This document shows, in pieces, positions 1,221-56,737 of a DNA stretch of 64,000 nucleotides (the stretch's first letter is position 1; each line of letters starts with the position of its first letter). The notes beneath the pieces are model-generated. The model ran no database searches. It saw nothing but the letters and a program-made list of their open reading frames with translations, and was not told the DNA's origin. The DNA is from a virus, in the IMG/VR virus record IMGVR_UViG_3300037859_000002, positions 47,212-111,211 of that record; one strand, given 5' to 3'. The translations under genes and the position numbers were made by a program.

Positions 1221-1229
1221 GTGGGTCGT

Positions 1230-1299
1230 GTTCCTCTTCAGTGCCACCCTGATTGGTGGCAGACCCACCCTGGCGTGGGGCCAGGGTGGTTTCGGATCA
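1230..1299 (-). ncRNA. hammerhead ribozyme HH3, type II
   Basis: UGAUCC GAAA / stem III CACCCUGGC-GCCAGGGUG / GUC / UGCCACC-GGUGGCA / CUGAAGA GGAAC. Confidence 0.9.
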
Positions 1300-1539
1300 G
1301 GCTGGTCGCAGACTGACGACCTTGCCGCCCGAGGTGTTCATGACGCGTCGGGCCAGCAGTTCCTGGCGGCGTTCGTGGGTGAGCCCCGCGAGGGGCAGGG
1401 CCACGATCAGCAGGGCCAGCATTGGCAGCGCCCCGGCCGCGGCCGCGATGGGCACGAGCCTGTCGATGGCGTAGCCGATGGCCAGGCCGATGCCGATTTC
1501 GCCGGCAAAGAGCAGCCGTTCGAGCGTCGGTTCTTCCAT
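1297..1539 (-). CDS. small membrane protein
   Basis: 80 aa with two hydrophobic segments; bounded by HH4 and HH3. Confidence 0.7.
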   Translation of the reverse strand: MEEPTLERLLFAGEIGIGLAIGYAIDRLVPIAAAAGALPMLALLIVALPLAGLTHERRQELLARRVMNTSGGKVVSLRPA

Positions 1540-1545
1540 GGGAGT

Positions 1546-1616
1546 TGATCCTCTTCAGCGCCACCTTGATTGGTGGCCGACGCGCCCCGGCCATGGGCCA
1601 GGGCGGTTTCGGATCA
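1546..1616 (-). ncRNA. hammerhead ribozyme HH4, type II (identical to HH20)
   Basis: UGAUCC GAAA...GUC G GCCACC-GGUGGC G CUGAAGA GGAUCA; perfect 6-bp stem II. Confidence 0.92.
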
Positions 1617-1973
1617 GGCGGGTCGGTCAGGATGGTAGTCGAGCGCGCGCTTCAGCCGTGCGACCAGCGTACGTGGCTTGCTCTCGAGGCCGAACAGCGA
1701 CTCGGACACCTGCTTTGTGATGCCAAAGAACACGGGTCCGATGGACTCGCTGCGGACTTCCTGTTCCCCGACAAAGGGGAACAACATGCGCCCGTCGTCG
1801 AACAGGTGGCGCAGCGTCAGTCCCTCGTTCTGCATCTCGGGCGTCATGGCCGCGTGGCCGATGATGCACCCGGGGCTGCCACAGAAGTCGGTCCAGCGGG
1901 TCATCACCAGCTGATCGGGCGGAATGCTCGCCGCCAGGTCGGTGACGAAGGCCAGCCTCTCGTAGGGTGTCAT
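1614..1973 (-). CDS. CGxxxCIxGH family protein (paralogue 1)
   Basis: CGSPGCIIGH..PEMQNEGL; similar to 2617-2997 and 62482-62865. Confidence 0.75.
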   Translation of the reverse strand: MTPYERLAFVTDLAASIPPDQLVMTRWTDFCGSPGCIIGHAAMTPEMQNEGLTLRHLFDDGRMLFPFVGEQEVRSESIGPVFFGITKQVSESLFGLESKPRTLVARLKRALDYHPDRPA

Positions 1974-1980
1974 GCGCGTG

Positions 1981-2051
1981 GTTCCTCTTCAGGCCCGCGG
2001 GATTGCGGGCAGAGCGGCCCCGCCGCGGTGCGACGGGGTGCTTTCGGATCA
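1981..2051 (-). ncRNA. hammerhead ribozyme HH5, type II
   Basis: UGAUCC GAAA GC...GCUC U GCCCGC-GCGGGC CUGAAGA GGAAC; one extra U after the cleavage triplet. Confidence 0.85.
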
Positions 2052-2252
2052 GTCTTCGGGAGGCGCCCTCACCACGGGATACGGGTAGCCCAGCGCGGTC
2101 ATGACCCGTTCGTGGATCTCGCACGCGTGGTCCCGGTCTTCCTCGTTCCAGGTGGGGCGGCCCTGCCGGCGGCGCCGGCGGTGGGCCGCGTCGGTGCCCG
2201 CCGCGTGGGCGAGCCCGAGGGCCTCCTGGTAGCTGTCAGCGCGGATGGGCAT
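2049..2252 (-). CDS. hypothetical protein
   Basis: short ORF overlapping its upstream gene and ending in HH5; start uncertain. Confidence 0.6.
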   Translation of the reverse strand: MPIRADSYQEALGLAHAAGTDAAHRRRRRQGRPTWNEEDRDHACEIHERVMTALGYPYPVVRAPPED

Positions 2253-2541
2253 CGACGCCCTCGCCGTTGACGGCGTGGCCCACCAGGGTGCCGTAGCGGC
2301 GCCTGGTCGCGTGGGCCATCATGGCCAGGGCTTCGCGCACGCGGCGGGCATCGGCCGCGATCGACAGGAGCTCCGTTTCGGGCACCTGTTCGACCCCCTC
2401 GGGAAAGCGTTGCTGGATCTGCTCGGCGATGTCCTGCACGAGCCTGCAGCAGGCTTTCATCTGGGTGGCCACGGCGTTGCCCGAGGGCATGGAGTCGAGC
2501 GCGAGCGTGAGCCAGTCGTCGGGCAGTTGGTGTTGAGGCAT
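2236..2541 (-). CDS. hypothetical protein
   Basis: 101-aa ORF; RBS lies in HH6. Confidence 0.7.
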   Translation of the reverse strand: MPQHQLPDDWLTLALDSMPSGNAVATQMKACCRLVQDIAEQIQQRFPEGVEQVPETELLSIAADARRVREALAMMAHATRRRYGTLVGHAVNGEGVDAHPR

Positions 2542-2546
2542 CTGGT

Positions 2547-2619
2547 TGATCCTCTTCAGTGCCGGCGATGGTGCCGGCCGAGCGTCCCCGCCGCGATGCG
2601 ACGGGGCGCTTTCGGATCA
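2547..2619 (-). ncRNA. hammerhead ribozyme HH6, type II
   Basis: UGAUCC GAAA GCG..CGCUC G GCCGGC-GCCGGC A CUGAAGA GGAUCA. Confidence 0.92.
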
Positions 2620-2997
2620 GGTTGTGACCGGCTCTTTCAAAAGCCGGTCGATCAGGGCCAGCTGCCGGTCCTTGGTCTGGTGCCGGGGCCGGGCATCATC
2701 GGAATAGAACAGCACGGTCCCGGCGTCGTTGCTGATGCCGAAGAACTCGGACAGGCCGATGTTGCCGACGGGGTTGCCGTTGACGGTCGGCGAAGGCCAG
2801 GGGCCATCGGTCAGCTCCAGGCCCTCGGCCTGGAGGACCGGATCCTGGGCACCGTGGCCCGCGATGCACGCGGTGGTGCCGCACTGTGAAACCCAGGCGC
2901 TCATGTGGATTGCTTGGGCCGGTGTGTTGGCGATGACCTTGCGCAGGCGGGCCAGCCGCTGTCGCGGCGTCAGGCCAACGGGTTCCGGGTCTGTCAT
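2617..2997 (-). CDS. CGxxxCIxGH family protein (paralogue 2)
   Basis: GLTPRQRLARLR..CGTTACIAGHGAQDPVLQAEGL. Confidence 0.8.
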   Translation of the reverse strand: MTDPEPVGLTPRQRLARLRKVIANTPAQAIHMSAWVSQCGTTACIAGHGAQDPVLQAEGLELTDGPWPSPTVNGNPVGNIGLSEFFGISNDAGTVLFYSDDARPRHQTKDRQLALIDRLLKEPVTT

Positions 2998-4016: not shown

Positions 4017-4117
4017 CGGCTGCCTCTTCGGCACAGGATGGGGGCCCACATCGCTGTGGATGCACGCCGCGGCTCCTTCCTCGCGGGAGGGGCGCGCGCG
4101 CGCATTTCGATCAGCCG
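4017..4117 (-). ncRNA. hammerhead ribozyme HH9, type II, CCGAAGA core variant
   Basis: CGGCUGAUC GAAA UGCGCGC..GCGUGCAUC CACAG..CUGUG CCGAAGA GGCAGCCG; triplet AUC. Confidence 0.75.
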
Positions 4118-5802: not shown

Positions 5803-6645
5803 ATGCCTAAGGGCCACCCGCCCTCCATCTGGGCCAGCATCCGCGCCGACTATGTCGCAGGCCTGGGCACGACCAACGACCTGGCCCGAACCTATGGCGT
5901 CGACGCCTCGGGCATCCGCAAGCGCCGCATCCTCGAGGCCTGGCCCGAACCGGGCGAACGCATCGTAGACACCGCCCTCTACAGGACCAAATCCAAGCAG
6001 GGTGTGAAACCCGCAGATCAAGCCCCGCGCTCGCCAAAGCAGCAGGCCGGAACACATTTCACACCCGAGGGTGTGAAACCCATGGAACACCCTGGAACAC
6101 CCCCCCGGACGGGCGTGCTCCAGAAGCCCCGAACGCGAGAGCAGGCGCTGCTCATGGCCGCCGAACGCGAGTTCGTCCGAGACCTCGCCATCATCGACGC
6201 CATCGCCCCCAAGGCGGCAGCCCTCATCGAAGACCACCTGGCCCGGACCGCCCAGCTCAAGCAGCACTTCACCCGGCTCCACACCCTCCTGGGCAACCTC
6301 ATCCACGACGACCCCCAGAAGCGCGCGACCGCACAGGACGTGCTCGGCCAGGTGCCGCCCGAAACGGTGCTGAACACGATGCTCAACCTGGCCTCGTCGA
6401 TCCAGCGGCTCGAGCGCCAGTCGCTGCAGCTCGACATGGGGCCCCGGCGCCTCGAGCTCACCGGCAAGGACGGGGCGCCGCTGCCCGCCACCCAGGTCAA
6501 CGTCGGTGTGGGCGTGAAGCTCGACGCCAAGACCATGACGACCGAGCAGCTGGCCGCCCTGGGCTCGGTCCTGGAGGCCGTGGACGGCCAGGCGCCGCGC
6601 ACGGCGCTGAAGCGTCCGCCCCAGGGGCCGATGATTGAGGGCTGA
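5803..6645 (+). CDS. terminase small subunit-like protein
   Basis: N-terminal HTH (WASIRADYVAG..LARTYGV..IRKR), C-terminal ELTGKDGAPL motif, upstream of TerL. Confidence 0.65.
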   Translation: MPKGHPPSIWASIRADYVAGLGTTNDLARTYGVDASGIRKRRILEAWPEPGERIVDTALYRTKSKQGVKPADQAPRSPKQQAGTHFTPEGVKPMEHPGTPPRTGVLQKPRTREQALLMAAEREFVRDLAIIDAIAPKAAALIEDHLARTAQLKQHFTRLHTLLGNLIHDDPQKRATAQDVLGQVPPETVLNTMLNLASSIQRLERQSLQLDMGPRRLELTGKDGAPLPATQVNVGVGVKLDAKTMTTEQLAALGSVLEAVDGQAPRTALKRPPQGPMIEG

Positions 6646-6649
6646 GCAG

Positions 6650-7390
6650 CGCCGGCCTTTCTTCGTGCGTCGGGCCCGTGGTAGAACGCGCGTCGCTACT
6701 GCCGAGGTCACGCTCGGCGTGAGTCCTGCGATGGCCTGGCCAGATCGGGCGGGGCGCTCCCCGCGGACATCGAGCACAGGGCGAACGGTGGAAGTAACGC
6801 CCCTCCAGTAGCCACTTGCACGGCACATCGAAGTGTGAGATACGGTGCGGGCTGCTTGGCGATCAGGCCCGTTACTTTGGAAACTGTAGGTCGTCCGTTC
6901 AAATCGGACCAGCGGTCGCAAGGCTGCTGTAGCTCAGCCTGGTAGAGCAACGGTATGAAACGGACCGCCCTAAATTCCGGCGGCAACTGCTAACCCATCC
7001 GGCCAGGGGTTGTGGCCGGGGACCGAGATGAGTGCCCCGCGAGGGGAGCCAAGCCCCCACAGGGGGCCGCCCGGTTGATCACCGGGCGCTCGGAGGAATT
7101 CAGTTCTGCGGTGGCCGGTACGAAGCGCGAGCAAAGAACCTCGTCGCCCCACGGGCAACCTTACAGTAGGGGCTGGCTACGCCCGGCACACGCAAGTGGG
7201 ATGCCGGCAACGTCGCAAAGCCAGTTCGGCCGCCCGGGACGCCGGGGCGCTCGGCCGACGTGTTGGCCATCGCAGAAGCCAGCTGATTTGGGGTGGTGTT
7301 CTCGGCCCGCATTTCGTGGGCCAAAGCCTTGATAAAACGAGCGTATGTGCTGGTGCCCTTGAGCTGGTCTGGCCATCGCGGAAGCCTTCG
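6650..7390 (+). ncRNA. large structured ncRNA candidate (possibly GOLLD-like)
   Basis: ~740 nt without a credible ORF; many hairpins with GNRA-type loops; internal 17-nt repeat; abuts tRNA-Met; ends approximate. Confidence 0.45.
6883..6954 (+). ncRNA. circularly permuted tRNA-like domain
   Basis: order is anticodon-stem 3' strand, variable loop, T arm, acceptor stem capped by GCAA, D arm, anticodon-stem 5' strand. Confidence 0.75.
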
Positions 7391-7392
7391 GA

Positions 7393-7469
7393 TGCAGGGT
7401 AGAGCAGCCCGGTAGCTCGTCTGGCTCATAACCAGAAGGTCGCCCGTTCGAATCGGGCCTCTGCAACCA
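7393..7469 (+). tRNA. tRNA-Met (CAT), initiator-like
   Basis: full cloverleaf; GAGCAGCCCGGTAGCTC D arm; CT-CAT-AA loop; TTCGAAT; encoded CCA. Confidence 0.92.
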
Positions 7470-7517
7470 CCCCGGCTCGGATTGCCACACACAAGCATAA
7501 CGTGAGCGCAAGCCGCG

Positions 7518-8021: not shown

Positions 8022-8096
8022 GCCCCGCTAGCTCAATGGCAGAGCGCCCCCTTTGTAAGGGGATGGTTGCCGGGTCGAAACCGGCGCGGGGCTCCA
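8022..8096 (+). tRNA. tRNA-Thr (TGT)
   Basis: cloverleaf GCCCCGC...GCGGGGC T CCA; TT-TGT-AA loop; atypical T loop GTCGAAA. Confidence 0.88.
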
Positions 8097-8825: not shown

Positions 8826-10391
8826 GTGCCGCTCGACCTCACCCAGGTGCAGGACCTGGCGCTCGCAAACCGCATCGAGATCGAGCGCGAGCTCGGGCGC
8901 CGCAGCTTCTGGCACTTCTTCCGGATGGCATGGCGCTACATCGATCCGGCGCCCTTCGTCGATGGCTGGCACCTGCGCGCGATCTGCGACGCGCTCGAGG
9001 CCCTGGCCCGACGCGACTTCCGTGAGCTCGTGCTCTGCGTGCCCCCGCGGCACACGAAGTCGCTGCTCGTCTCGGTCTGCTTCCCCGCCTGGGTCTGGAC
9101 CTGGGATCCGGCCCACCAGTTCATCACCGCCTCATACGACCAGCGCCTGGCCGTGCGCGACGGGCTCAAGAGCCGCCGCCTGGTCAAGAGCGCCTGGTTC
9201 CAACAGCGGTGGCCCGAGGTCCAGTTCCGCAAGGACCAGGACACCAAGACCTACTACGAGACCACCGCGGGCGGGCACCGGTTTCTCACCACGCCGGGCT
9301 CGGGCGTGACGGGCCACGGCGCCGACACCATCCTGGGCGACGACCTGCACAACGCCAAGGAGGCGACCACCGAGATCAGCCGCGAGGAAGCCCGCGAATT
9401 CTGGTTCGAGAGCATCAGCTCGCGCCTCAACGACCAGATGACCGGCGCCTTCGGGGTGATCCAGCAGCGCCTGCACAACGACGACGTGGCCGGCCACTGC
9501 ATGCGCAAGGGCTACCACAAGGTGGTGCTGCCCGCGCTCTTTGAGGCCGACCACCCGGACGCATACGCGCTCGACCCTCGCGTCGAGGGCGAACCCCTGT
9601 GGCCGGCGCGCATGCCCCTCGAGGCGATCGAGCGTCAGCGCCAGACCCTCGGGGCCTATGCCTTCGCTGGTCAGCAGCAGCAGCGCCCCACGGCGCGCGA
9701 GGGCGGGCTGTTCAAGCGCGCCGACTTCATCATCGGCGAGGCCATCCCGCCCGGGGTCATCAGCTGGGTCCGCCGCTGGGACCTGGCGGGGACCGAGCCC
9801 AAGCCCGGGGGCGACCCCGACTACACCGTGGGCGTCAGGATGGGCCGCCTGCCCGACGGGCGGTTCGTCATCAGCTCGGTGATCCGGGAGCGCCTGTCGC
9901 CCCTTGGGGTGGAGAAGCTCCTTCTCGCGACCGCGCAGCTCGATGGTACGGGGGTCACGATCGGGCTGAGCCAGGATCCCGGTCAGGCGGGCAAGGCCCA
10001 GATCAGGGCGCTGACGACGATGTTGAACGGCTACATGGTCGTGTCGGAGCCCGAGACGGGATCGAAGTTCACCCGCGCCGAGATCCTGGCCCCCCAGGTG
10101 GAGGCGGGCAACCTGCTGCTGCTGCGCGCCGACTGGAACGAAGAGTTCCTGGTCGAGATGCAGATGTTCCCCAACGCCTCGCACGACGACCAGGTGGACG
10201 CCGCCACGGGCGCGCACCGGCTGCTGACCCAGAACCAGCAGGGCATGCTCGACCTGATGCGCGCCGAATTCCGCGACGCGATGTTGAAGCGCGCGCGCGA
10301 GCTGATCGCCCAGGGCCAGATGGCCGACCCAGAGATTGCGGTCGCCACGGGGTTGGCGCTCGAGGAGATCGAGGCCCTTCGGCGCGCTTGA
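8826..10391 (+). CDS. terL: terminase large subunit
   Basis: PPRHTKS Walker A, ILGDD Walker B, WDLA and HDDQVDA nuclease motifs. Confidence 0.95.
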   Translation: MPLDLTQVQDLALANRIEIERELGRRSFWHFFRMAWRYIDPAPFVDGWHLRAICDALEALARRDFRELVLCVPPRHTKSLLVSVCFPAWVWTWDPAHQFITASYDQRLAVRDGLKSRRLVKSAWFQQRWPEVQFRKDQDTKTYYETTAGGHRFLTTPGSGVTGHGADTILGDDLHNAKEATTEISREEAREFWFESISSRLNDQMTGAFGVIQQRLHNDDVAGHCMRKGYHKVVLPALFEADHPDAYALDPRVEGEPLWPARMPLEAIERQRQTLGAYAFAGQQQQRPTAREGGLFKRADFIIGEAIPPGVISWVRRWDLAGTEPKPGGDPDYTVGVRMGRLPDGRFVISSVIRERLSPLGVEKLLLATAQLDGTGVTIGLSQDPGQAGKAQIRALTTMLNGYMVVSEPETGSKFTRAEILAPQVEAGNLLLLRADWNEEFLVEMQMFPNASHDDQVDAATGAHRLLTQNQQGMLDLMRAEFRDAMLKRARELIAQGQMADPEIAVATGLALEEIEALRRA

Positions 10392-11365: not shown

Positions 11366-12061
11366 ATGCCGCGCGCACGCATCGATCCCGGTTGGCTGCG
11401 CGCGGCCCTGATGGATGAAATCCGCGCCTGCATCGCCGCCGGCCGGTCATTCCCGACCAACAGCGATCTTGGGGCGCGCTGGGACATCAACGCCGTCACC
11501 GTGGTCGAGAAGCTGAACCAGTTGAAGGCCATGAAGCTGATCAGGGTCGAGCGCTTCGGCAACAGCCGGCGAATCACCCTGGTCGAAACCGGCGGGCAGA
11601 CGAGGCTGCCCAGCGGGGTGCGCGAGACACAACACTGGTCCGAGCGAGGGGGGCGCCCCCCCCGGCGCGGGACCGGCGCCCGATCCGGGGCGCCTCCAGG
11701 GGGCGCGTCGGCCGCCCCAGCGAACCAAGGGGGCCTGACGCGCCGCCCCGGCGCCCGGACGCCCCAGGCGCCGGGTGTTTTTGAGGCCAAGGCCCCCGAG
11801 CCGACACCGGTGCCAGATCAGGCTGAAGTCCGACTGCGGGCCAACATCACCAGGGCGAAGAACCTCGCCCAGCGCTCCGTGGCCGGCACCTACAAGGCGC
11901 CGACGGTGTTGCCGGTCCCGCGACGCTGTGCGTTCCCCGTGCGTGACTGGCGCGCCCACCCGCGCGCCTGGTTCTGCGGTAGCCCCTCGGTCGAGGGGCG
12001 CCCCTATTGCGCCGCGCACTGCGAGGTCGCCTACCAGAAGCGCAAGGAAGAAACGGAATGA
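11366..12061 (+). CDS. HTH protein with GcrA-like C-terminal domain
   Basis: N-terminal winged-HTH-like segment; C-terminal RRCAFP..WFCG...GRPYCAAHCEVAY. Confidence 0.75.
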   Translation: MPRARIDPGWLRAALMDEIRACIAAGRSFPTNSDLGARWDINAVTVVEKLNQLKAMKLIRVERFGNSRRITLVETGGQTRLPSGVRETQHWSERGGRPPRRGTGARSGAPPGGASAAPANQGGLTRRPGARTPQAPGVFEAKAPEPTPVPDQAEVRLRANITRAKNLAQRSVAGTYKAPTVLPVPRRCAFPVRDWRAHPRAWFCGSPSVEGRPYCAAHCEVAYQKRKEETE

Positions 12062-52305: not shown

Positions 52306-54087
52306 ATGGCCAACAAGACGATTCCGCTTCTCGATCCTGTTGTCCTGACCCGCGCTTCCGAATTCTGGGGCGACAACGGCACCGCGGACGGGCGCGAGAG
52401 CATCGCCGACATCCTGGCGCTCGCGCTACAGGCCGACATCACGGGGCTGAAGACGACCGACAGCCCGCAGTTCGCGGCCATCAACATCGGCGCCGCCACG
52501 GACACGACGATCGCGCGCGTGAGTGCGGGCGTCATCTCGGTCGAGGGCGATACGGTCGTGACCCTGACGGCGACGCAGACGCTGACGAACAAGACCTTCA
52601 CGGCCCCGGTGCTGGGGACCCCCGGGTCTGGCAACCTGTCGAACTGCACGGCGCTGCCTGTGGGGTCGCTCACGGGTGACCTGCCGTTCTCGAGTTTCGT
52701 GCAGGCCGGTTCCGCCGGCTTCGTCGGCGCCACCGGCGCGGGTGACTACGCGCACCGCACGATCGTGCAGACCAAGGCCGACCTCTCAATCGACGATCTG
52801 GTGACGCTCTCTGGTGTCGCCGACGGCGCGGTCAACCTGGGCACCTTCACGGGCACGACCATCGCGGACAACGTGACGATCAAGGCGGCGCTCCAGTCGC
52901 TGGAGACTTCGCTCGAGGTCCTCTCCCTGGATGCGGAGATCACGGCGATCGCGGGCCTGACCAGCGCGGCCGACCGCCTTCCCTACTTCACCGGGAGCGG
53001 CACCGCGGCGCTCGCGACCTTCACCGCCGCGGCGCGCGCGCTGGTCGACGACGCCGACGCGGCGGCCCAGCGAACCACCCTGGGACTGGGGACTGCCGAC
53101 AATCCGCAGTTCGCGACCATCGAGCTGGGCGCCGCCACGGACACGACCCTGGCGCGGTCAAGCGCGGGCAACGTGTCCGTCGAGGGCAACGTGCTCTACC
53201 GGGCCGGTGGCACCGACGTGCCTGTCTCCGATGGCGGCACCGGCCTTTCGGCGACGACGGCCTATGCCGTGCTGTGCGGTGGCACCACAACCACGGGCGC
53301 GCTGCAGAGCGTCGCCGGCCTGGGCACCAGCGGCCAGGTCCTGACCTCGAACGGCGCGGGCGCGCTGCCGACCTTCCAGGCTGCCAGCGGCGGTGGCGCC
53401 GCGGGCTTCGCCAGCCTGCGGGTGGTGACCGCCACGGGCAACATCACCAACAGCGACAGGAACGGCGTGGTCTACCTGAACACCGCCAGCGCTGGCCAGA
53501 CCGCGACGTTGGTGCGTACGAGCTTCACGGCGCTCGACCGCCTGCTGGTCGAGAACATCGGCAGCGCCGCCTGGACCGTCAGTGCCGGCACGGATGGGTT
53601 CAACACCGCGGGCAACGACAGCTTCGTGCTCTACCCCGGTGAGGGCTGCTGGATCACCTATGAGGGCACGGCCGATCCCTACTGGCGCACGGCCATCCCC
53701 GGCAGCCTGACTCTTGCGGCCAACCAGGTGATGGTGCTGAACAACGCCGGCACGGCCTTCGAGGCCCGCACACAGAAGCCCGAGTGGCGCCTGACCCTGC
53801 CGATCACGGCGAACGGTACCTATGCGCTGGGCCTGGAGGGCGACCTCCCGGTCAACTGGGTGAACTGGAAGTGCCGCACCGTCGGCGGCACCGCCAGCAT
53901 CCAGGTGCGCAAGAACGGCACGGCCGTGAACGGCTTCGGCTCGGCGGTGGCACTGACCAGCACGGCTGGCGACACGGCCTCCACGGGCACCAGCGGCGAT
54001 GGCGCCTACTGGGATGTTGTGGTGACCTCGGCGTCATCGCTGACGGGCATCGCGCTCGTCGCCGAGGGTGTCAGGACCGGTAACTGA
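52306..54087 (+). CDS. tail fibre protein
   Basis: duplicated PQFA.I..GAATDTT.AR module; QTLTNKT; GQVLTSNGAGALP. Confidence 0.8.
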   Translation: MANKTIPLLDPVVLTRASEFWGDNGTADGRESIADILALALQADITGLKTTDSPQFAAINIGAATDTTIARVSAGVISVEGDTVVTLTATQTLTNKTFTAPVLGTPGSGNLSNCTALPVGSLTGDLPFSSFVQAGSAGFVGATGAGDYAHRTIVQTKADLSIDDLVTLSGVADGAVNLGTFTGTTIADNVTIKAALQSLETSLEVLSLDAEITAIAGLTSAADRLPYFTGSGTAALATFTAAARALVDDADAAAQRTTLGLGTADNPQFATIELGAATDTTLARSSAGNVSVEGNVLYRAGGTDVPVSDGGTGLSATTAYAVLCGGTTTTGALQSVAGLGTSGQVLTSNGAGALPTFQAASGGGAAGFASLRVVTATGNITNSDRNGVVYLNTASAGQTATLVRTSFTALDRLLVENIGSAAWTVSAGTDGFNTAGNDSFVLYPGEGCWITYEGTADPYWRTAIPGSLTLAANQVMVLNNAGTAFEARTQKPEWRLTLPITANGTYALGLEGDLPVNWVNWKCRTVGGTASIQVRKNGTAVNGFGSAVALTSTAGDTASTGTSGDGAYWDVVVTSASSLTGIALVAEGVRTGN

Positions 54088-54088
54088 G

Positions 54089-56737
54089 ATGCCGGTCGCG
54101 CGCACCTACGGGACCAGGCTTCGCACGCGGGGAGCGGGCGCGGCCCGACAGGCGGTGCCCGACTTCGGTGGCGCGGGCGGCCTGATCGCGACGCTGCAGC
54201 TGGTGAACACCAGCGGCAGCACCCAGGCTGCGGCGCCCACGCACATGGCCGGCATCTGGCTGCGCGAGGGCGACCTGCCCAGCGGCCAGCACCCGCAGTG
54301 GAAGATCGACGGCACCACGCGCAAGGCCACCTGGCGCGTGAATGCGCGCTGGCCCGATGGCAGCGCCCAGCACATCAGCTTCATCCTGATCGCCCCCAGC
54401 ATCGCGGGCAGCGCCACCAAGGACGTGGAGGTCTGGGGCGGCGGCGCGGCGCCAGTGACCTCTGGGCTGGACCTGACCACCATCACCGGCCGCGATTTCA
54501 AGACCGAGATCACCGGAATCACGAACCTGACCGGCACATGGACCGCGAGCGTCGACCGGGGGATCAGCGACAACGACAGCGTCCTGCTGATCATGAACGG
54601 CGAGGCGGGGCCGGTGTACCGCGTGCGGACGCAGCTGCGCGACAGCGGCAACGTCGCGCACGGCCAGCTGCACTCGTATGACTACGTGCAGGTGCTGGCC
54701 AACGACAGCGGCACGCTGGCGCATTTCCGCCTGCTGTCGCGCATCGTTCCGCCGTTTCTCAACGTGGACAGCCCGTCGAAGGTCAAGCGCAGCTTCGCCT
54801 CGCTGGTGGTGAAGGACGGCGCCTCGACGATCGCGACGCTCACCTCCGGCAGCGCCAAGACTTTCACCGCCAGCGGCGGCAGCGTTACGGTCACCATGAC
54901 CGGCCACGGCCTCGAGACTGGCATGGCCGGCCGCATGACCACGACGGGCACCCTGCCTGGCGGGCTGAGCACAGGCACCGACTATTACCTGCGCGTGACC
55001 GGCACCAACACGGTCCAACTCTATCCCATTGCAAGCGATTCAGTCGGCGACTTCAACGTCATCACACCCTCCTCGGCCGGGTCGGGCACCCACACCTTCA
55101 CCCCGCACATCGAAGTCGTGCACTTCGCCAGCGTCTTCACCGCCACTGGCGAGGGCAAGTACCAGTTCGCCCAGGGCGGCGGGTCGGTCTCGACCGAGAA
55201 CACCTGCCGCTGGGTGTTCCCGAAGGCCTACCTGAAATCGACGAAGTGCATCCCGACCTGGCGGGTGGACCACACGCCCACGGCGTTCGCCACCCACAGC
55301 TACGTCCCGAACGGCAAGGGCCCGCTGCGCTCCCGATTCGGCGACACGGGGGCGCACCCCCAGATCGCTGTGCAGCCGCAATGGGCGGCCACGCACTTCC
55401 AGCTGCAGACCGCGACGCAGGAGCAGACCGTGCGCGTCGCGGGCCTGAGCCTGGGGCACGCGACGATCTGCGTGCGCAACAGCGGCACCGGCACGGTCCC
55501 GGTGCTGAACGCTGCCAGCGGTACGCCCTACACGGGCATGGGAACCGCGGTGGCGACCTCGATCCGCTGGAACGGCTCCCCGGGCCAGAGCACGGGCTTC
55601 ACCATGCCTACTGGCGACTCCACCGGGGTCATCCTCGCCGAGGGCTTCAATCACTGGGGCGGCGGGCCGGTGATGTATGCGGCCGGCATCACGGGCGAGC
55701 CGCAGTACTTCGACCTGCTGGTCGAGACCGCCAACTACACGATCCTGTCGCGCGAGCTGAACAGCAGCAGGAACAACGCCAGCGCCAGCCGCTACGGCTA
55801 CCAGATCTTCGATCCCTACCAGGTGCGCGAGGATGCCTGGGCGATGGCCAACATGGGCCACGCCGCCGGCATGATCAGCGTCGCGCACTGGGATGCCGCG
55901 GGGCTGCACACCTATCTGCAGGACTGCCTGAAGGTCACCTACGACGAGGCGAACGCGCGCGTCACCGCGCTGCCGACCTTCCAGCAGAACAACGGCCTGA
56001 TGCCCTACATCATCGAGCAGGGGGGCGCGAACGCCGGCAACATCAAGACCTATCTGGCGCCGTGGAACACCGACTACATGATCGAGGCGGTGTCCGCGAC
56101 GTACGGGCTGACCAAGTACGCGGGCGCCAAAACCTTCGGCGAGTTCCTGGGCAAGCTGCCGGCGGCGGTGCATGCCGACGTGGGGCTGTTCCACTGGTTC
56201 GTCTACCAGGTCCTGATCTCGACGGCGGAGATCTACGCGCTGGTCACCAACATCAACCAGGTGCACTACCTGCTGGACCTGCTGTCGGTCGATGTGAGCG
56301 GCAACACGATCACGGTGGACCCGCCGGCACAGTTCAACATGGCCGACGGCGATCGGATCCTGATCACGGGATCCGGCGCGGGTCCGACCGCCTTCCAAAG
56401 CCTGTATGCGCGCGATGTCAGTGATCCTGGGGTGGGGTCGAACAAAACGTTTCGCGTGGCGACCACGGCGGGCGGCACGGCGATCGACATCACCAGCACC
56501 AGCGTCGGCTTCGTCAACGCTCGGCTGCTGGGGTCGCAGCCGAACACTTACGGCCTGACCTACGCTGGCGATAACCAGTATCAGCAGGTGGGCTTCTCGG
56601 CCTACTCGATGGCCGTGGCCATGGGCCTGTCGGGGTTCAGTACGATCCAGACCGAGGCGGCGAGGCTGATCGCCCTGGATTCGTTTTCAACGTTTGCCAA
56701 CCCAATGAACGACCGGACATCGAGCGTGCTGACATGA
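54089..56737 (+). CDS. large receptor-binding or depolymerase-like virion protein
   Basis: 882 aa; RWPDGS N-terminal module; TLPGGL..GTDYY module. Confidence 0.6.
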   Translation: MPVARTYGTRLRTRGAGAARQAVPDFGGAGGLIATLQLVNTSGSTQAAAPTHMAGIWLREGDLPSGQHPQWKIDGTTRKATWRVNARWPDGSAQHISFILIAPSIAGSATKDVEVWGGGAAPVTSGLDLTTITGRDFKTEITGITNLTGTWTASVDRGISDNDSVLLIMNGEAGPVYRVRTQLRDSGNVAHGQLHSYDYVQVLANDSGTLAHFRLLSRIVPPFLNVDSPSKVKRSFASLVVKDGASTIATLTSGSAKTFTASGGSVTVTMTGHGLETGMAGRMTTTGTLPGGLSTGTDYYLRVTGTNTVQLYPIASDSVGDFNVITPSSAGSGTHTFTPHIEVVHFASVFTATGEGKYQFAQGGGSVSTENTCRWVFPKAYLKSTKCIPTWRVDHTPTAFATHSYVPNGKGPLRSRFGDTGAHPQIAVQPQWAATHFQLQTATQEQTVRVAGLSLGHATICVRNSGTGTVPVLNAASGTPYTGMGTAVATSIRWNGSPGQSTGFTMPTGDSTGVILAEGFNHWGGGPVMYAAGITGEPQYFDLLVETANYTILSRELNSSRNNASASRYGYQIFDPYQVREDAWAMANMGHAAGMISVAHWDAAGLHTYLQDCLKVTYDEANARVTALPTFQQNNGLMPYIIEQGGANAGNIKTYLAPWNTDYMIEAVSATYGLTKYAGAKTFGEFLGKLPAAVHADVGLFHWFVYQVLISTAEIYALVTNINQVHYLLDLLSVDVSGNTITVDPPAQFNMADGDRILITGSGAGPTAFQSLYARDVSDPGVGSNKTFRVATTAGGTAIDITSTSVGFVNARLLGSQPNTYGLTYAGDNQYQQVGFSAYSMAVAMGLSGFSTIQTEAARLIALDSFSTFANPMNDRTSSVLT

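What the first reader, a model, noticed from the sequence alone, without database searches (positions are those of the whole stretch)
6883..6954. Circularly permuted tRNA-like domain with a GNRA-capped acceptor stem
Seen: ACTGT-AGGTC-GTCCG TTCAAAT CGGAC-CAGCGGTC GCAA GGCTGCTG-TA-GCTC AGCCTGGTA GAGC-A-ACGGT. The 3' half of a tRNA precedes the 5' half, the acceptor end is closed by GCAA with no CCA, and the anticodon stem opens into the surrounding RNA. The D and T loops are canonical, so the elbow should form. Established: permuted tRNA genes occur in some algae and archaea and rely on splicing endonucleases. Inference: here it is more likely a tRNA-mimic domain of a large RNA (decoy or ribosome/enzyme binder). 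Standard tRNA finders would probably miss it.
Basis: partly seen in the sequence, partly recalled or inferred. Interest (0 to 1): 0.85.

Follow-up and report, generated by a model that had tools for sequence, protein, structure and literature searches.

The report
Phage Y RNA with tRNA-like domain
The "permuted tRNA" is real, but it is the tRNA-shaped module of a Y RNA, the small RNA partner of the Ro60/Rsr protein, carried by a prophage; this kind of RNA is already described, and what is unusual here is that it lies 47 kb from the phage's own Ro60 gene.

Summary
Window 6883-6954 reads T arm, closed 8-bp hairpin with a GCAA loop, D arm, all held by a 5-bp anticodon-like stem. Every canonical tRNA tertiary pair is present, and the re-permuted sequence is called a tRNA by ARAGORN.

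It is the effector module of a YrlA-type Y RNA of about 134 nt (window 6851-6984, + strand). The literature already describes YrlA RNAs as resembling circularly permuted tRNAs with closed acceptor stems.

Main evidence:
- A full-length match to Rfam YrlA (34.6 bits, below the gathering score of 69), the best in the 111-kb provirus.
- A Ro60/Rsr gene (TROVE plus vWA) in the same provirus.
- Eleven related loci in which the RNA lies directly upstream of rsr.
- Covariation in four of the five helices.
- A short element directly upstream of this provirus's rsr that shares the window RNA's 5' and 3' blocks but has no tRNA-like module.

Departures from published YrlA:
- 47 kb from rsr, on the opposite strand, in a tRNA cluster beside the terminase gene.
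- GGCGAUCAG in place of the GNCGAA motif.
- Score below the Rfam threshold.

I class it as a variant of a known kind, of moderate to low interest.

In passing: a second class of such RNAs in phages accompanies DUF2828/DUF7788 proteins, whose predicted fold matches Ro60.

The parts
6851..6984 (+). Whole Y RNA (YrlA-like), minimum extent from the outermost helix P0
   Evidence: Rfam YrlA full-length match at 6865-6970. The session's own model R1 matches 6856-6979 at 73.1 bits. P0, the GG/CC pairs and P1 are read directly from the sequence and recur in relatives. Partners outside the window, in record coordinates: rsr at G000 5904-7445 (-) and the short paralogous element at G000 7447-7512 (-).
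6851..6855 (+). P0 5' strand GCUGC, pairs with GCGGC at 6980-6984
   Evidence: Read from the sequence. The equivalent outer helix is seen in L124, L128, L131 and in the rsr-proximal element.
6858..6866 (+). GGCGAUCAG, the variant of the GNCGAA(N)G Ro-binding motif. GG pairs with CC at 6977-6978; CGAUCA is the 5' side of an internal loop.
   Evidence: It is in register with GGUGCAG, GGCGCAG, GGUGUAG, GCCGAAUG and GGCGAAG in the rsr-adjacent relatives. The rsr-proximal element has GGCGUUCAG.
6866..6871 (+). P1 5' strand GGCCCG, pairs with CGGACC at 6961-6966 (one C.A mismatch)
   Evidence: Helix 1 of the family: 7 of 8 pairs show changes on both sides. There are two compensatory changes relative to the rsr-proximal paralogue (GACCGG/CCGGUC).
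6872..6882 (+). 5' joining strand UUACUUUGGAA, containing the conserved UUACUU / AUACUU motif
   Evidence: The motif is conserved in window, L123, L124, L126, L128, L030, L031, L023 and in the rsr-proximal element.
   Evidence: Covariation in the T, acceptor-like and anticodon-like helices.
6967..6984 (+). 3' tail GCCCUAAAUU-CC-G-GCGGC: 3' side of the internal loop, the CC pairs and the P0 3' strand
   Evidence: The A/U-rich stretch followed by UUCC is conserved in relatives. UUCCGGCGGC occurs only twice in the 111-kb record, here and at the 3' end of the rsr-proximal element.
7393..7469 (+). tRNA-Met(CAU), 409 nt downstream on the same strand (context)
   Evidence: ARAGORN and Rfam.
8022..8096 (+). 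tRNA-Thr(UGU) on the same strand (context). The large terminase subunit gene follows at 8826-10391.

Best explanation
Window 6851-6984 (+) encodes a phage Y RNA of the YrlA type.

Shown from sequence and comparison: its 5' and 3' ends pair to form helices P0 and P1. These flank an internal loop that carries GGCGAUCAG on the 5' side and an A/U-rich stretch ending in UUCC on the 3' side. The same layout occurs in relatives that sit next to rsr. The loop of this stem is replaced by a complete tRNA body without an anticodon arm. Its order is T arm, closed acceptor-like hairpin, D arm, so it reads as a circularly permuted tRNA.

Inferred from the family: the stem module is the docking site for the Ro60/Rsr ring (TROVE plus vWA) encoded by the same provirus. 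The L-shaped tRNA-like module is the effector end. By analogy with Salmonella, Mycobacterium and Thermus phage phiLo, it would be recognised by host tRNA-handling enzymes (TruB, DusA, possibly RNase P and the CCA-adding enzyme). It would also help tether Ro60 to an exoribonuclease such as PNPase, as part of RNA surveillance or repair during infection.

The short element that ends 1 nt before the rsr start codon has the same stem module without the tRNA body. It is either a second, stem-only Y RNA or an Rsr-binding leader of the rsr mRNA.
For: 1. Rfam YrlA (RF02553) aligns end to end (model 1-114) at window 6865-6970, 34.6 bits, E 3e-5. It is the best match in the whole 111-kb record. The only other hit is the tandem tRNA-Arg artefact, which is partial (model 23-88).
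2. The same record encodes a 513-aa TROVE plus vWA protein. Its best solved relative is the Ro60 of Thermus phage phiLo (9KOP/9L5Y, E 3e-27).
3. Nine viral contigs carry the same RNA type, with the UACUU motif and the UUCC tail. All nine encode a TROVE protein 0.1-1.5 kb downstream on the same strand.
4. The two closest Rsr homologues in genomes (Hyphomonadaceae MAGs, 45% identity) have 2-3 such RNAs directly upstream of rsr.
5. A model built only from those nine relatives scores the window RNA at 73.1 bits over its full length.
6. In 16 family members, 91% of cells pair, against 33-42% when the partners are slid. 22 of 28 pairs show changes on both sides.
7. The pattern GGCG[AT]TCAGNCCNGTTACTT and the 10-mer TTCCGGCGGC each occur exactly twice in the record: at this RNA and directly upstream of rsr. 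There are two compensatory changes in P1 between the two copies.
8. All tRNA tertiary pairs are present.
9. Published work establishes this architecture and its partners (PMC4201824, bioRxiv 10.1101/312249, PMC12135203).
Against: - The Rfam score is half the gathering score (34.6 against 69).
- The strict GNCGAA(N0-1)G motif is not met.
- The RNA is 47 kb from rsr on the opposite strand, whereas the published sets required a distance of 4 kb or less on the same strand.
- Both covariance models also score tandem tRNA pairs highly (60.6 bits for the tRNA-Arg pair). The score is therefore driven by the tRNA core and does not by itself prove a Y RNA.
- The minimum-free-energy fold does not give the cloverleaf: -35.6 to -40.8 kcal/mol for the proposed fold against -49.3 for the minimum.
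- The provirus ends are undefined (no att repeat was found). That rsr is a phage gene is therefore likely but not proven.
- Binding to Rsr and transcription were not tested.
Confidence: 0.85

Rival explanations
1. A Ro-independent tRNA mimic. In this reading the RNA has been uncoupled from rsr and now works as part of the phage tRNA cluster. It could act as a decoy or sponge for host proteins that recognise the tRNA elbow or acceptor-T arm (defence nucleases, modification enzymes), or as an RNase P processing signal for the neighbouring transcript.
For: It lies 47 kb from rsr on the other strand, in a noncoding stretch with tRNA-Met and tRNA-Thr upstream of the terminase gene. The 7-bp acceptor-like stem resembles the M. 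smegmatis YrlA that RNase P cleaves (PMC4201824). Class-2 RNAs of the same shape also occur 7-26 kb from their partner gene, and one complete phage record has neither TROVE nor DUF7788.
Against: The stem module (P0, GG/CC, internal loop, P1, UUACUU, UUCC tail) is retained and is almost identical to the element that abuts rsr in the same genome, with compensatory changes. There is no anticodon loop, so it cannot be a bait for anticodon nucleases. All nine relatives of this RNA class found in viral contigs have a TROVE gene next to them.
Confidence: 0.1
2. A decayed remnant of two adjacent tRNA genes: the 3' half of one fused to the 5' half of the next, with no function.
For: Tandem tRNAs give the same T-loop then D-arm order and score well with the YrlA models. 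102 of 133 pattern matches in viral contigs were of that kind. The element sits in a tRNA-rich region.
Against: The two acceptor strands pair with each other through a 4-nt GCAA loop, leaving no room for two tRNA ends. The flanks form a 5-bp stem and further helices that covary across 16 homologues. The tertiary positions are intact. The flanking motifs are shared with the rsr-proximal element.
Confidence: 0.02
3. A permuted tRNA gene, as in Cyanidioschyzon merolae, or a permuted two-piece tmRNA gene, as in Alphaproteobacteria. In either case it would be processed into a molecule with a free CCA end that takes part in translation.
For: The 3'-half-before-5'-half order is the same. The likely host group is alphaproteobacterial: the nearest Rsr relatives are in Hyphomonadaceae. 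The 7-bp acceptor-like stem could be opened by RNase P.
Against: There is no anticodon loop, because the anticodon-like stem opens into the P1/P0 stem. No CCA is encoded. No bulge-helix-bulge motif was seen by eye, and no splicing endonuclease is expected in a bacterium (neither was searched for). ARAGORN, which detects permuted tmRNA, finds no tmRNA. There was no tmRNA family hit at E up to 10. The D arm is canonical, unlike in tmRNA, and no tag reading frame follows.
Confidence: 0.02

Closest known systems
YrlA RNAs (Rfam RF02553) of Salmonella Typhimurium, Mycobacterium smegmatis and mycobacteriophages (Chen et al. 2014, PMC4201824; crystal structure PDB 6CU1, bioRxiv 10.1101/312249)
   Same: Modular Y RNA. 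The 5' and 3' ends form the Ro60/Rsr-binding stem. The effector module is ordered T arm, closed acceptor-like stem-loop, D arm, with the tRNA tertiary pairs and no CCA. A Ro60 orthologue is encoded in the same genome. Phage examples are known (22 bacteriophages in the 2014 study). The 7-bp acceptor-like stem is as in M. smegmatis YrlA, which is an RNase P substrate.
   Different: - It scores 34.6 bits against the gathering score of 69.
- It has GGCGAUCAG instead of GNCGAA(N0-1)G.
- It has no V stem-loop (a 5-nt variable loop instead).
- It is 47 kb from rsr on the opposite strand, rather than within 4 kb on the same strand.
- A stem-only paralogue occupies the usual position next to rsr.
Thermus phage phiLo Ro60 with Yrl1 and Yrl2 (PMC12135203; PDB 9KOP, 9L5Y)
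   Same: A phage-encoded Ro60, and the closest solved relative of this provirus's Rsr. It has phage-encoded Y-like RNAs with a stem-bulge-stem layout upstream of the gene. It is reported to assemble with host PNPase.
   Different: In the passages read, Yrl1 and Yrl2 were defined by a CGAA motif and RNAfold, and no tRNA-like module is mentioned. In that respect they resemble the rsr-proximal short element here more than the window RNA.
Deinococcus radiodurans Yrn1
   Same: It is an Rsr partner that tethers Rsr to PNPase, and it has a T-arm-like element.
   Different: The order and orientation of its T-like and D-like arms differ, and it is thought to have evolved independently (PMC4201824).
Permuted tRNA genes of Cyanidioschyzon merolae, and permuted two-piece tmRNA genes of Alphaproteobacteria (from my own knowledge, not checked in a paper here)
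   Same: The 3' half of the tRNA-like body precedes the 5' half in the gene.
   Different: Those are processed to free acceptor ends with CCA and act in translation. Here the acceptor end is closed, there is no anticodon loop or tag frame, and the open end is a protein-binding stem.

Membership tests
YrlA-type Y RNA (RF02553; Chen et al. 2014) | T stem-loop with the tRNA T-loop consensus | tested here: met
   GUCCG-UUCAAAU-CGGAC at 6893-6909, with G53-C61 and U54-A58. The helix covaries in the family.
YrlA-type Y RNA (RF02553; Chen et al. 2014) | D stem-loop with the conserved GCUCA...GGUAGAGC | tested here: met
   6932-6948. It is invariant across the family, partly because the search pattern required it.
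YrlA-type Y RNA (RF02553; Chen et al. 2014) | [quoted passage not shown] | tested here: met
   6910-6929: 8 bp plus a GCAA loop. All 6 modelled pairs of this helix show changes on both sides in the family.
YrlA-type Y RNA (RF02553; Chen et al. 2014) | tRNA tertiary-interaction nucleotides that allow an L-shaped fold | tested here: met
   All of the standard tertiary pairs and base triples checked are present. The three-dimensional fold itself was not tested.
YrlA-type Y RNA (RF02553; Chen et al. 2014) | 5' and 3' ends pair into a stem that closes the module | tested here: met
   P1, P0 and the anticodon-like stem are read from the sequence. Helices 1 and 2 covary: 7 of 8 and 5 of 5 pairs show changes on both sides.
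YrlA-type Y RNA (RF02553; Chen et al. 2014) | GNCGAA(N0-1)G motif near the 5' end | tested here: not met
   The window has GGCGAUCAG at 6858-6866: GNCGA is kept, the sixth base is U, and the spacing is longer. The rsr-adjacent relatives show a graded series (GCCGAAUG, GGCGAAG, GGUGAAG, GGCGCAG, GGUGCAG, GGUGUAG), so this is a variant and not an absence.
YrlA-type Y RNA (RF02553; Chen et al. 2014) | Encoded within about 4 kb of rsr on the same strand (the operational criterion of the 2014 survey) | tested here: not met
   The RNA is at G000 54062-54195 (+) and rsr at G000 5904-7445 (-), 47 kb apart. They are in the same record.
YrlA-type Y RNA (RF02553; Chen et al. 2014) | Score at or above the Rfam gathering threshold | tested here: not met
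   34.6 bits against 69. The seven rsr-adjacent phage relatives that were scanned also fall below it, at 36-52 bits, so the threshold misses this phage subfamily.
YrlA-type Y RNA (RF02553; Chen et al. 2014) | Bound by Ro60/Rsr, and modified by tRNA enzymes | not testable with these tools
   This needs a pull-down, a gel-shift assay and modification mapping.
Permuted tRNA gene / two-piece tmRNA | Anticodon loop or tag reading frame, and processing to a free CCA end | tested here: not met
   There is no anticodon loop, no CCA and no tmRNA call.
Ro60/Rsr protein (partner, G000 5904-7445, minus strand) | TROVE (HEAT-repeat ring) domain followed by a vWA domain with a MIDAS motif | tested here: met
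   Pfam TROVE 44.2 bits and VWA_2 32.6 bits. It aligns to phiLo Ro60 over residues 70-497, E 3e-27. The DxSxS motif is conserved in the alignment.

The most novel reading that the evidence does not exclude
The phage may run a two-RNA switch on its Ro60. A stem-only Y element, fused to the rsr leader in the leftward gene block, would gate the ring or autoregulate rsr. The tRNA-bearing YrlA, transcribed with the rightward tRNA and terminase block, would later replace it and couple Ro60 to a host tRNA-handling enzyme or to PNPase. Because its acceptor-like stem is 7 bp plus a G-1:C73 pair, this YrlA might be opened by RNase P and CCA-tailed, as M. smegmatis YrlA is. That would give a two-piece Y RNA.
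Probability: 0.2. Interest if true: 0.55.

Novelty: new variant of a known kind. Interest (0 to 1): 0.3.

Why it matters
The finding does not reveal a new RNA class. The "permuted tRNA with a capped acceptor stem" is the published YrlA design. Three points are of use to people who work on Ro60 and Y RNAs.

- A Y RNA can be physically unlinked from rsr. Surveys that require a distance of 4 kb or less, as the 2014 survey did, would miss such cases.
- A whole phage subfamily with a variant Ro-binding motif scores well below the Rfam threshold, so standard annotation misses it.
- The pair formed by the tRNA-bearing RNA and its stem-only paralogue shows the modular build of Y RNAs within one genome. 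It also gives a ready-made natural control for binding experiments.

The provirus record also encodes RtcB and several tRNAs, which is consistent with a role for Ro60 and Y RNA in RNA repair or surveillance during infection.

Tried and rejected
- blastn of the 747-nt intergenic stretch against 50,697 phage records gave no match.
- A search for relatives of the upstream ORF (5803-6645) in viral contigs found none.
- Relatives of the terminase were only 27-41% identical, and none had a convincing YrlA-like RNA upstream.
- The promoter and terminator scan was uninformative.
- Sequencing runs: one DNA holder, labelled an algae metagenome and probably the source sample. No RNA holder was listed, so nothing can be said about expression.
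- No att direct repeat was found between the tRNA-Arg/integrase end and the rest of the record, so the provirus ends are undefined.
- With filters off, model R1 found no second tRNA-bearing copy near rsr or near the window RNA. Its only hit at rsr was the weak stem-only one at L002 7452-7507 (8.8 bits).
- The CGAA-containing AUCGAAG at 6828-6834 was considered as the Ro motif and rejected. It is out of register with the relatives and folds as a small local hairpin.
- MAFFT alone aligned the flanks poorly. The structure-guided model alignment was used instead.
- hhalign between the Rsr and DUF2828/DUF7788 alignments matched only the vWA part. The profile search against solved structures gave nothing. 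Only the fold comparison showed the full-length Ro60 likeness.
- The permuted tRNA gene, tmRNA and tandem-tRNA relic readings were rejected (see the rival explanations).

Full report
**Observation.** It parses as follows:
- Anticodon-like stem: ACUGU (6883-6887) with ACGGU (6950-6954).
- Variable loop: AGGUC.
- T arm: GUCCG-UUCAAAU-CGGAC.
- Acceptor-like hairpin: 8 bp, CAGCGGUC / GGCUGCUG, capped by GCAA.
- U8 and A9.
- D arm: GCUC-AGCCUGGUA-GAGC.
- A26.

In tRNA numbering, every canonical tertiary contact is available: U8-A14, G15-C48, G18-U55, G19-C56, U54-A58, G53-C61, A9 with U12-A23, and G46 with C13-G22. The acceptor-like stem is 7 bp plus a G-1:C73 pair under the tetraloop.

When the 5' half is placed in front of the 3' half with any 7-nt loop between them, ARAGORN calls a tRNA. 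In its native order neither ARAGORN nor the Rfam tRNA model reports it. A pattern for T loop, 18-44 nt, D arm occurs once in the window and in none of 100 shuffles.

**What it is.** A permissive Rfam scan gives a full-length match to YrlA (RF02553, model 1-114) at 6865-6970, at 34.6 bits and E 3e-5. This is below the gathering score of 69. It is the best YrlA match in the whole record. The only other hit is partial and comes from two adjacent tRNA-Arg genes.

YrlA RNAs are the bacterial and phage Y RNAs. They have a stem that binds the Ro60 orthologue Rsr, plus an effector module built as T arm, closed 'acceptor' stem-loop, D arm (PMC4201824).

**Genomic setting.** The window is bases 47212-111211 of a 111,211-bp IMG/VR provirus record with about 68% GC.
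- The RNA lies in a stretch without convincing coding frames (6646 to about 7517; GC3 values). On the same strand are tRNA-Met (7393-7469), tRNA-Thr (8022-8096), and then the large terminase subunit gene (8826-10391) and the portal gene.
- The record encodes one TROVE plus vWA protein of 513 aa at record positions 5904-7445, minus strand. Its best solved relative is the Ro60 of Thermus phage phiLo (9KOP/9L5Y, E 3e-27, residues 70-497; PMC12135203).
- An integrase (1848-2888), two tRNA-Arg genes and a 5'-truncated RtcB RNA ligase gene (1-1407) lie at the left end.
- The rsr gene sits inside a long block of small minus-strand genes that runs up to the divergence point at about 52.9 kb, just before the RNA. 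It is therefore most likely a phage gene, although no att repeat could be found to fix the ends.

**Relatives.** Two pattern scans of viral contigs returned many tandem tRNAs. They also returned RNAs with a closed hairpin between the T loop and the D arm and no overlapping tRNA call: 15 in the first scan and 9 in the second.

Nine distinct contigs share with the window RNA a 5' UUACUU/AUACUU motif and a 3' A/U-rich stretch ending in UUCC. These are L023, L030, L031, L123, L124, L126, L128, L130 and L131.
- All nine encode a TROVE protein on the same strand, 0.1-1.5 kb downstream of the RNA.
- The seven scanned with Rfam match YrlA at only 36-52 bits.
- The two closest Rsr homologues in the genome collection (Hyphomonadaceae MAGs, 45% identity) have two and three such RNAs directly upstream of rsr.
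- A covariance model built from the nine relatives alone (A2, R1) scores the window RNA at 73.1 bits over its full length. The tandem tRNA-Arg pair also scores 60.6 bits, so this score reflects the tRNA core and is not proof on its own.

On the model alignment of 16 family members, 91% of cells form standard pairs, against 33-42% when the partners are slid. 22 of 28 pairs show changes on both sides. This includes 7 of 8 pairs in the closing helix P1, 5 of 5 in the anticodon-like stem, 4 of 5 in the T stem and 6 of 6 in the acceptor-like stem. The alignment is fitted to the model, which favours the structure, and the D arm is invariant partly by ascertainment.

**Stem module.** Read directly from the sequences, the layout is:
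- Outer helix P0: GCUGC 6851-6855 with GCGGC 6980-6984.
- Two G-C pairs: GG 6858-6859 with CC 6977-6978.
- An internal loop: CGAUCA on the 5' side and GCCCUAAAUU on the 3' side.
- Helix P1: GGCCCG 6866-6871 with CGGACC 6961-6966, with one C.A mismatch.
- The joining strands: UUACUUUGGAA on the 5' side and AUGAAA on the 3' side.

The published Ro-binding motif GNCGAA(N0-1)G is not met strictly. The window has GGCGAUCAG. The rsr-adjacent relatives show a graded series in the same register: GCCGAAUG, GGCGAAG, GGUGAAG, GGCGCAG, GGUGCAG, GGUGUAG. It is therefore a variant of the motif and not a different element.

**The link to this provirus's own rsr.** Unlike all eleven related loci, the window RNA is 47 kb from rsr and on the opposite strand. 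No second tRNA-bearing copy lies near rsr.

Directly upstream of rsr, at record positions 7447-7512 on the minus strand, there is a short element. It carries the same 5' block (CUUGGCG[A/U]UCAG[G/A]CC[C/G]GUUACUU, 21 of 24 identical) and the same 3' block (UUCCGGCGGC). About 13 nt take the place of the 72-nt tRNA-like module.
- Each block occurs exactly twice in the 111-kb record, at these two places.
- P1 differs between the two copies by two double-sided compensatory changes, and the C.A mismatch is repaired in the short copy (GACCGG/CCGGUC).
- The short element ends 1 nt before the rsr start codon.

This is the strongest local evidence that the window RNA's stem is a functional module tied to this Rsr. 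It also shows the modular build: Ro-binding stem with or without a tRNA-like insert.

**Mechanism.**
- Shown: the anatomy, its conservation, and the co-occurrence with Ro60 genes.
- Inferred from the family: Rsr binds the stem module. The L-shaped module is recognised by tRNA enzymes (TruB and DusA act on Salmonella YrlA). Y RNAs tether Rsr to PNPase, and this has been reported for the phiLo phage protein with host PNPase.
- Speculative: M. smegmatis YrlA, which also has a 7-bp acceptor-like stem, is cut by RNase P and receives CCA. The same could happen here.

The RtcB gene at the left end of the record (which may be phage or host) and the several tRNA genes fit an RNA repair or surveillance role during infection (PMC7824862).

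**Rival readings.**
- A Ro-independent decoy is possible but less likely, given the retained stem module.
- A tandem-tRNA relic is excluded by the closed 4-nt loop, the covariation and the conserved flanks.
- A permuted tRNA or tmRNA gene is excluded because there is no anticodon loop, CCA or tag frame, and no tmRNA call.

**Novelty and score.** The kind is known, including in phages. Three operational membership criteria fail: the strict motif, linkage to rsr, and the Rfam threshold. I therefore file it as a new variant of a known kind and not as a plain member. Interest is 0.3.

**Side result.** Other closed-hairpin RNAs from the same scans carry a different stem motif: a long P1 followed by ACAGCAA.
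- None of the six records tested (L122, L132, L060, L061, L094, L099) has a TROVE hit.
- Four of these RNAs lie next to DUF2828 plus DUF7788 proteins.
- Three further records encode such a protein 2-26 kb away, and one complete record has none.
- A medium-confidence model of one such protein (pLDDT 65) matches Ro60 structures over its full length. The top 13 hits are all Ro60: 9KOP at E 1.8e-8 and TM 0.5, then 2NVO, 1YVR and human Ro60.
- No paper in the library links DUF2828 to Y RNAs.

This looks like a second pairing of a Ro60-like protein with a tRNA-like RNA, and it deserves its own follow-up.

Noticed in passing
L099:1169-1217, L060:312-360, L094:9825-9883(-), L058:3997-4051(-), L132:1777-1892, L061:8084-8132(-) and 4032-4080(-), L078:3676-3727, L118:6035-6083: A second class of permuted tRNA-like RNAs in phage contigs: a long closing stem followed by ACAGCAA, then the T arm, a closed hairpin and the D arm. 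The six records tested (L122, L132, L060, L061, L094, L099) lack a Pfam TROVE hit. Most of the records checked encode a DUF2828 plus DUF7788 protein, next to the RNA in four of them. One predicted structure of this protein matches Ro60 over its full length. No paper in the library links DUF2828 to Y RNAs.
   Followed up: partly
Outside the window: record G000 7447-7512 (-), that is L002:7447-7512:-: A stem-only paralogue of the window Y RNA. It ends 1 nt before the rsr start codon, and its 3' helix strand lies where a ribosome-binding site would be. It could be a second Y RNA or an Rsr-responsive leader.
   Followed up: partly
Outside the window: L002:7984-8059 (-) and L002:8078-8160 (+): A tRNA with a CUA anticodon, an amber-suppressor type that ARAGORN labels Pyl (Rfam tRNA 40.9 bits), lies about 540 nt upstream of rsr on the same strand. 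Opposite it is a long-arm tRNA-like sequence with a sub-threshold tRNA-Sec match (38.8 bits); its anticodon reads UGA by eye. Whether the phage recodes TAG was not examined.
   Followed up: no
Outside the window: L002:1-1407 (+), 1464-1653 (+), 1848-2888 (-): A 5'-truncated RtcB RNA ligase gene, two tRNA-Arg genes and an integrase gene lie at the left end of the record. It is unclear whether RtcB is a phage or a host gene. In Salmonella, rsr, the Y RNAs and rtcB share an operon.
   Followed up: partly
window 6981-7392 and 6646-6850: About 410 nt and 205 nt of apparently noncoding, GC-rich sequence flank the Y RNA, with no family match. The 412-nt stretch folds somewhat better than shuffles (z-score -2.1), and the 210-nt stretch does not (z-score +0.6).
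   Followed up: partly
window 1225-1297 (-): This is the only Rfam hint of the hammerhead arrays that earlier first-stage notes report for this genome: Hammerhead_II at 31 bits against a gathering score of 37, E 0.0026. The gathering-threshold scan of the whole window reported none.
   Followed up: partly
window 11843-11931 (-): An 89-nt tRNA-Thr(UGU) is called by ARAGORN on the minus strand only, not by Rfam at the gathering threshold. It lies inside the region of plus-strand structural genes.
   Followed up: no
L128:6070-6122 (+): A relative's rsr locus also carries a DUF3800-VI RNA motif (45.2 bits, above its gathering score of 35), two tRNAs, and a second YrlA-like copy at 6709-6830, all upstream of rsr.
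   Followed up: no
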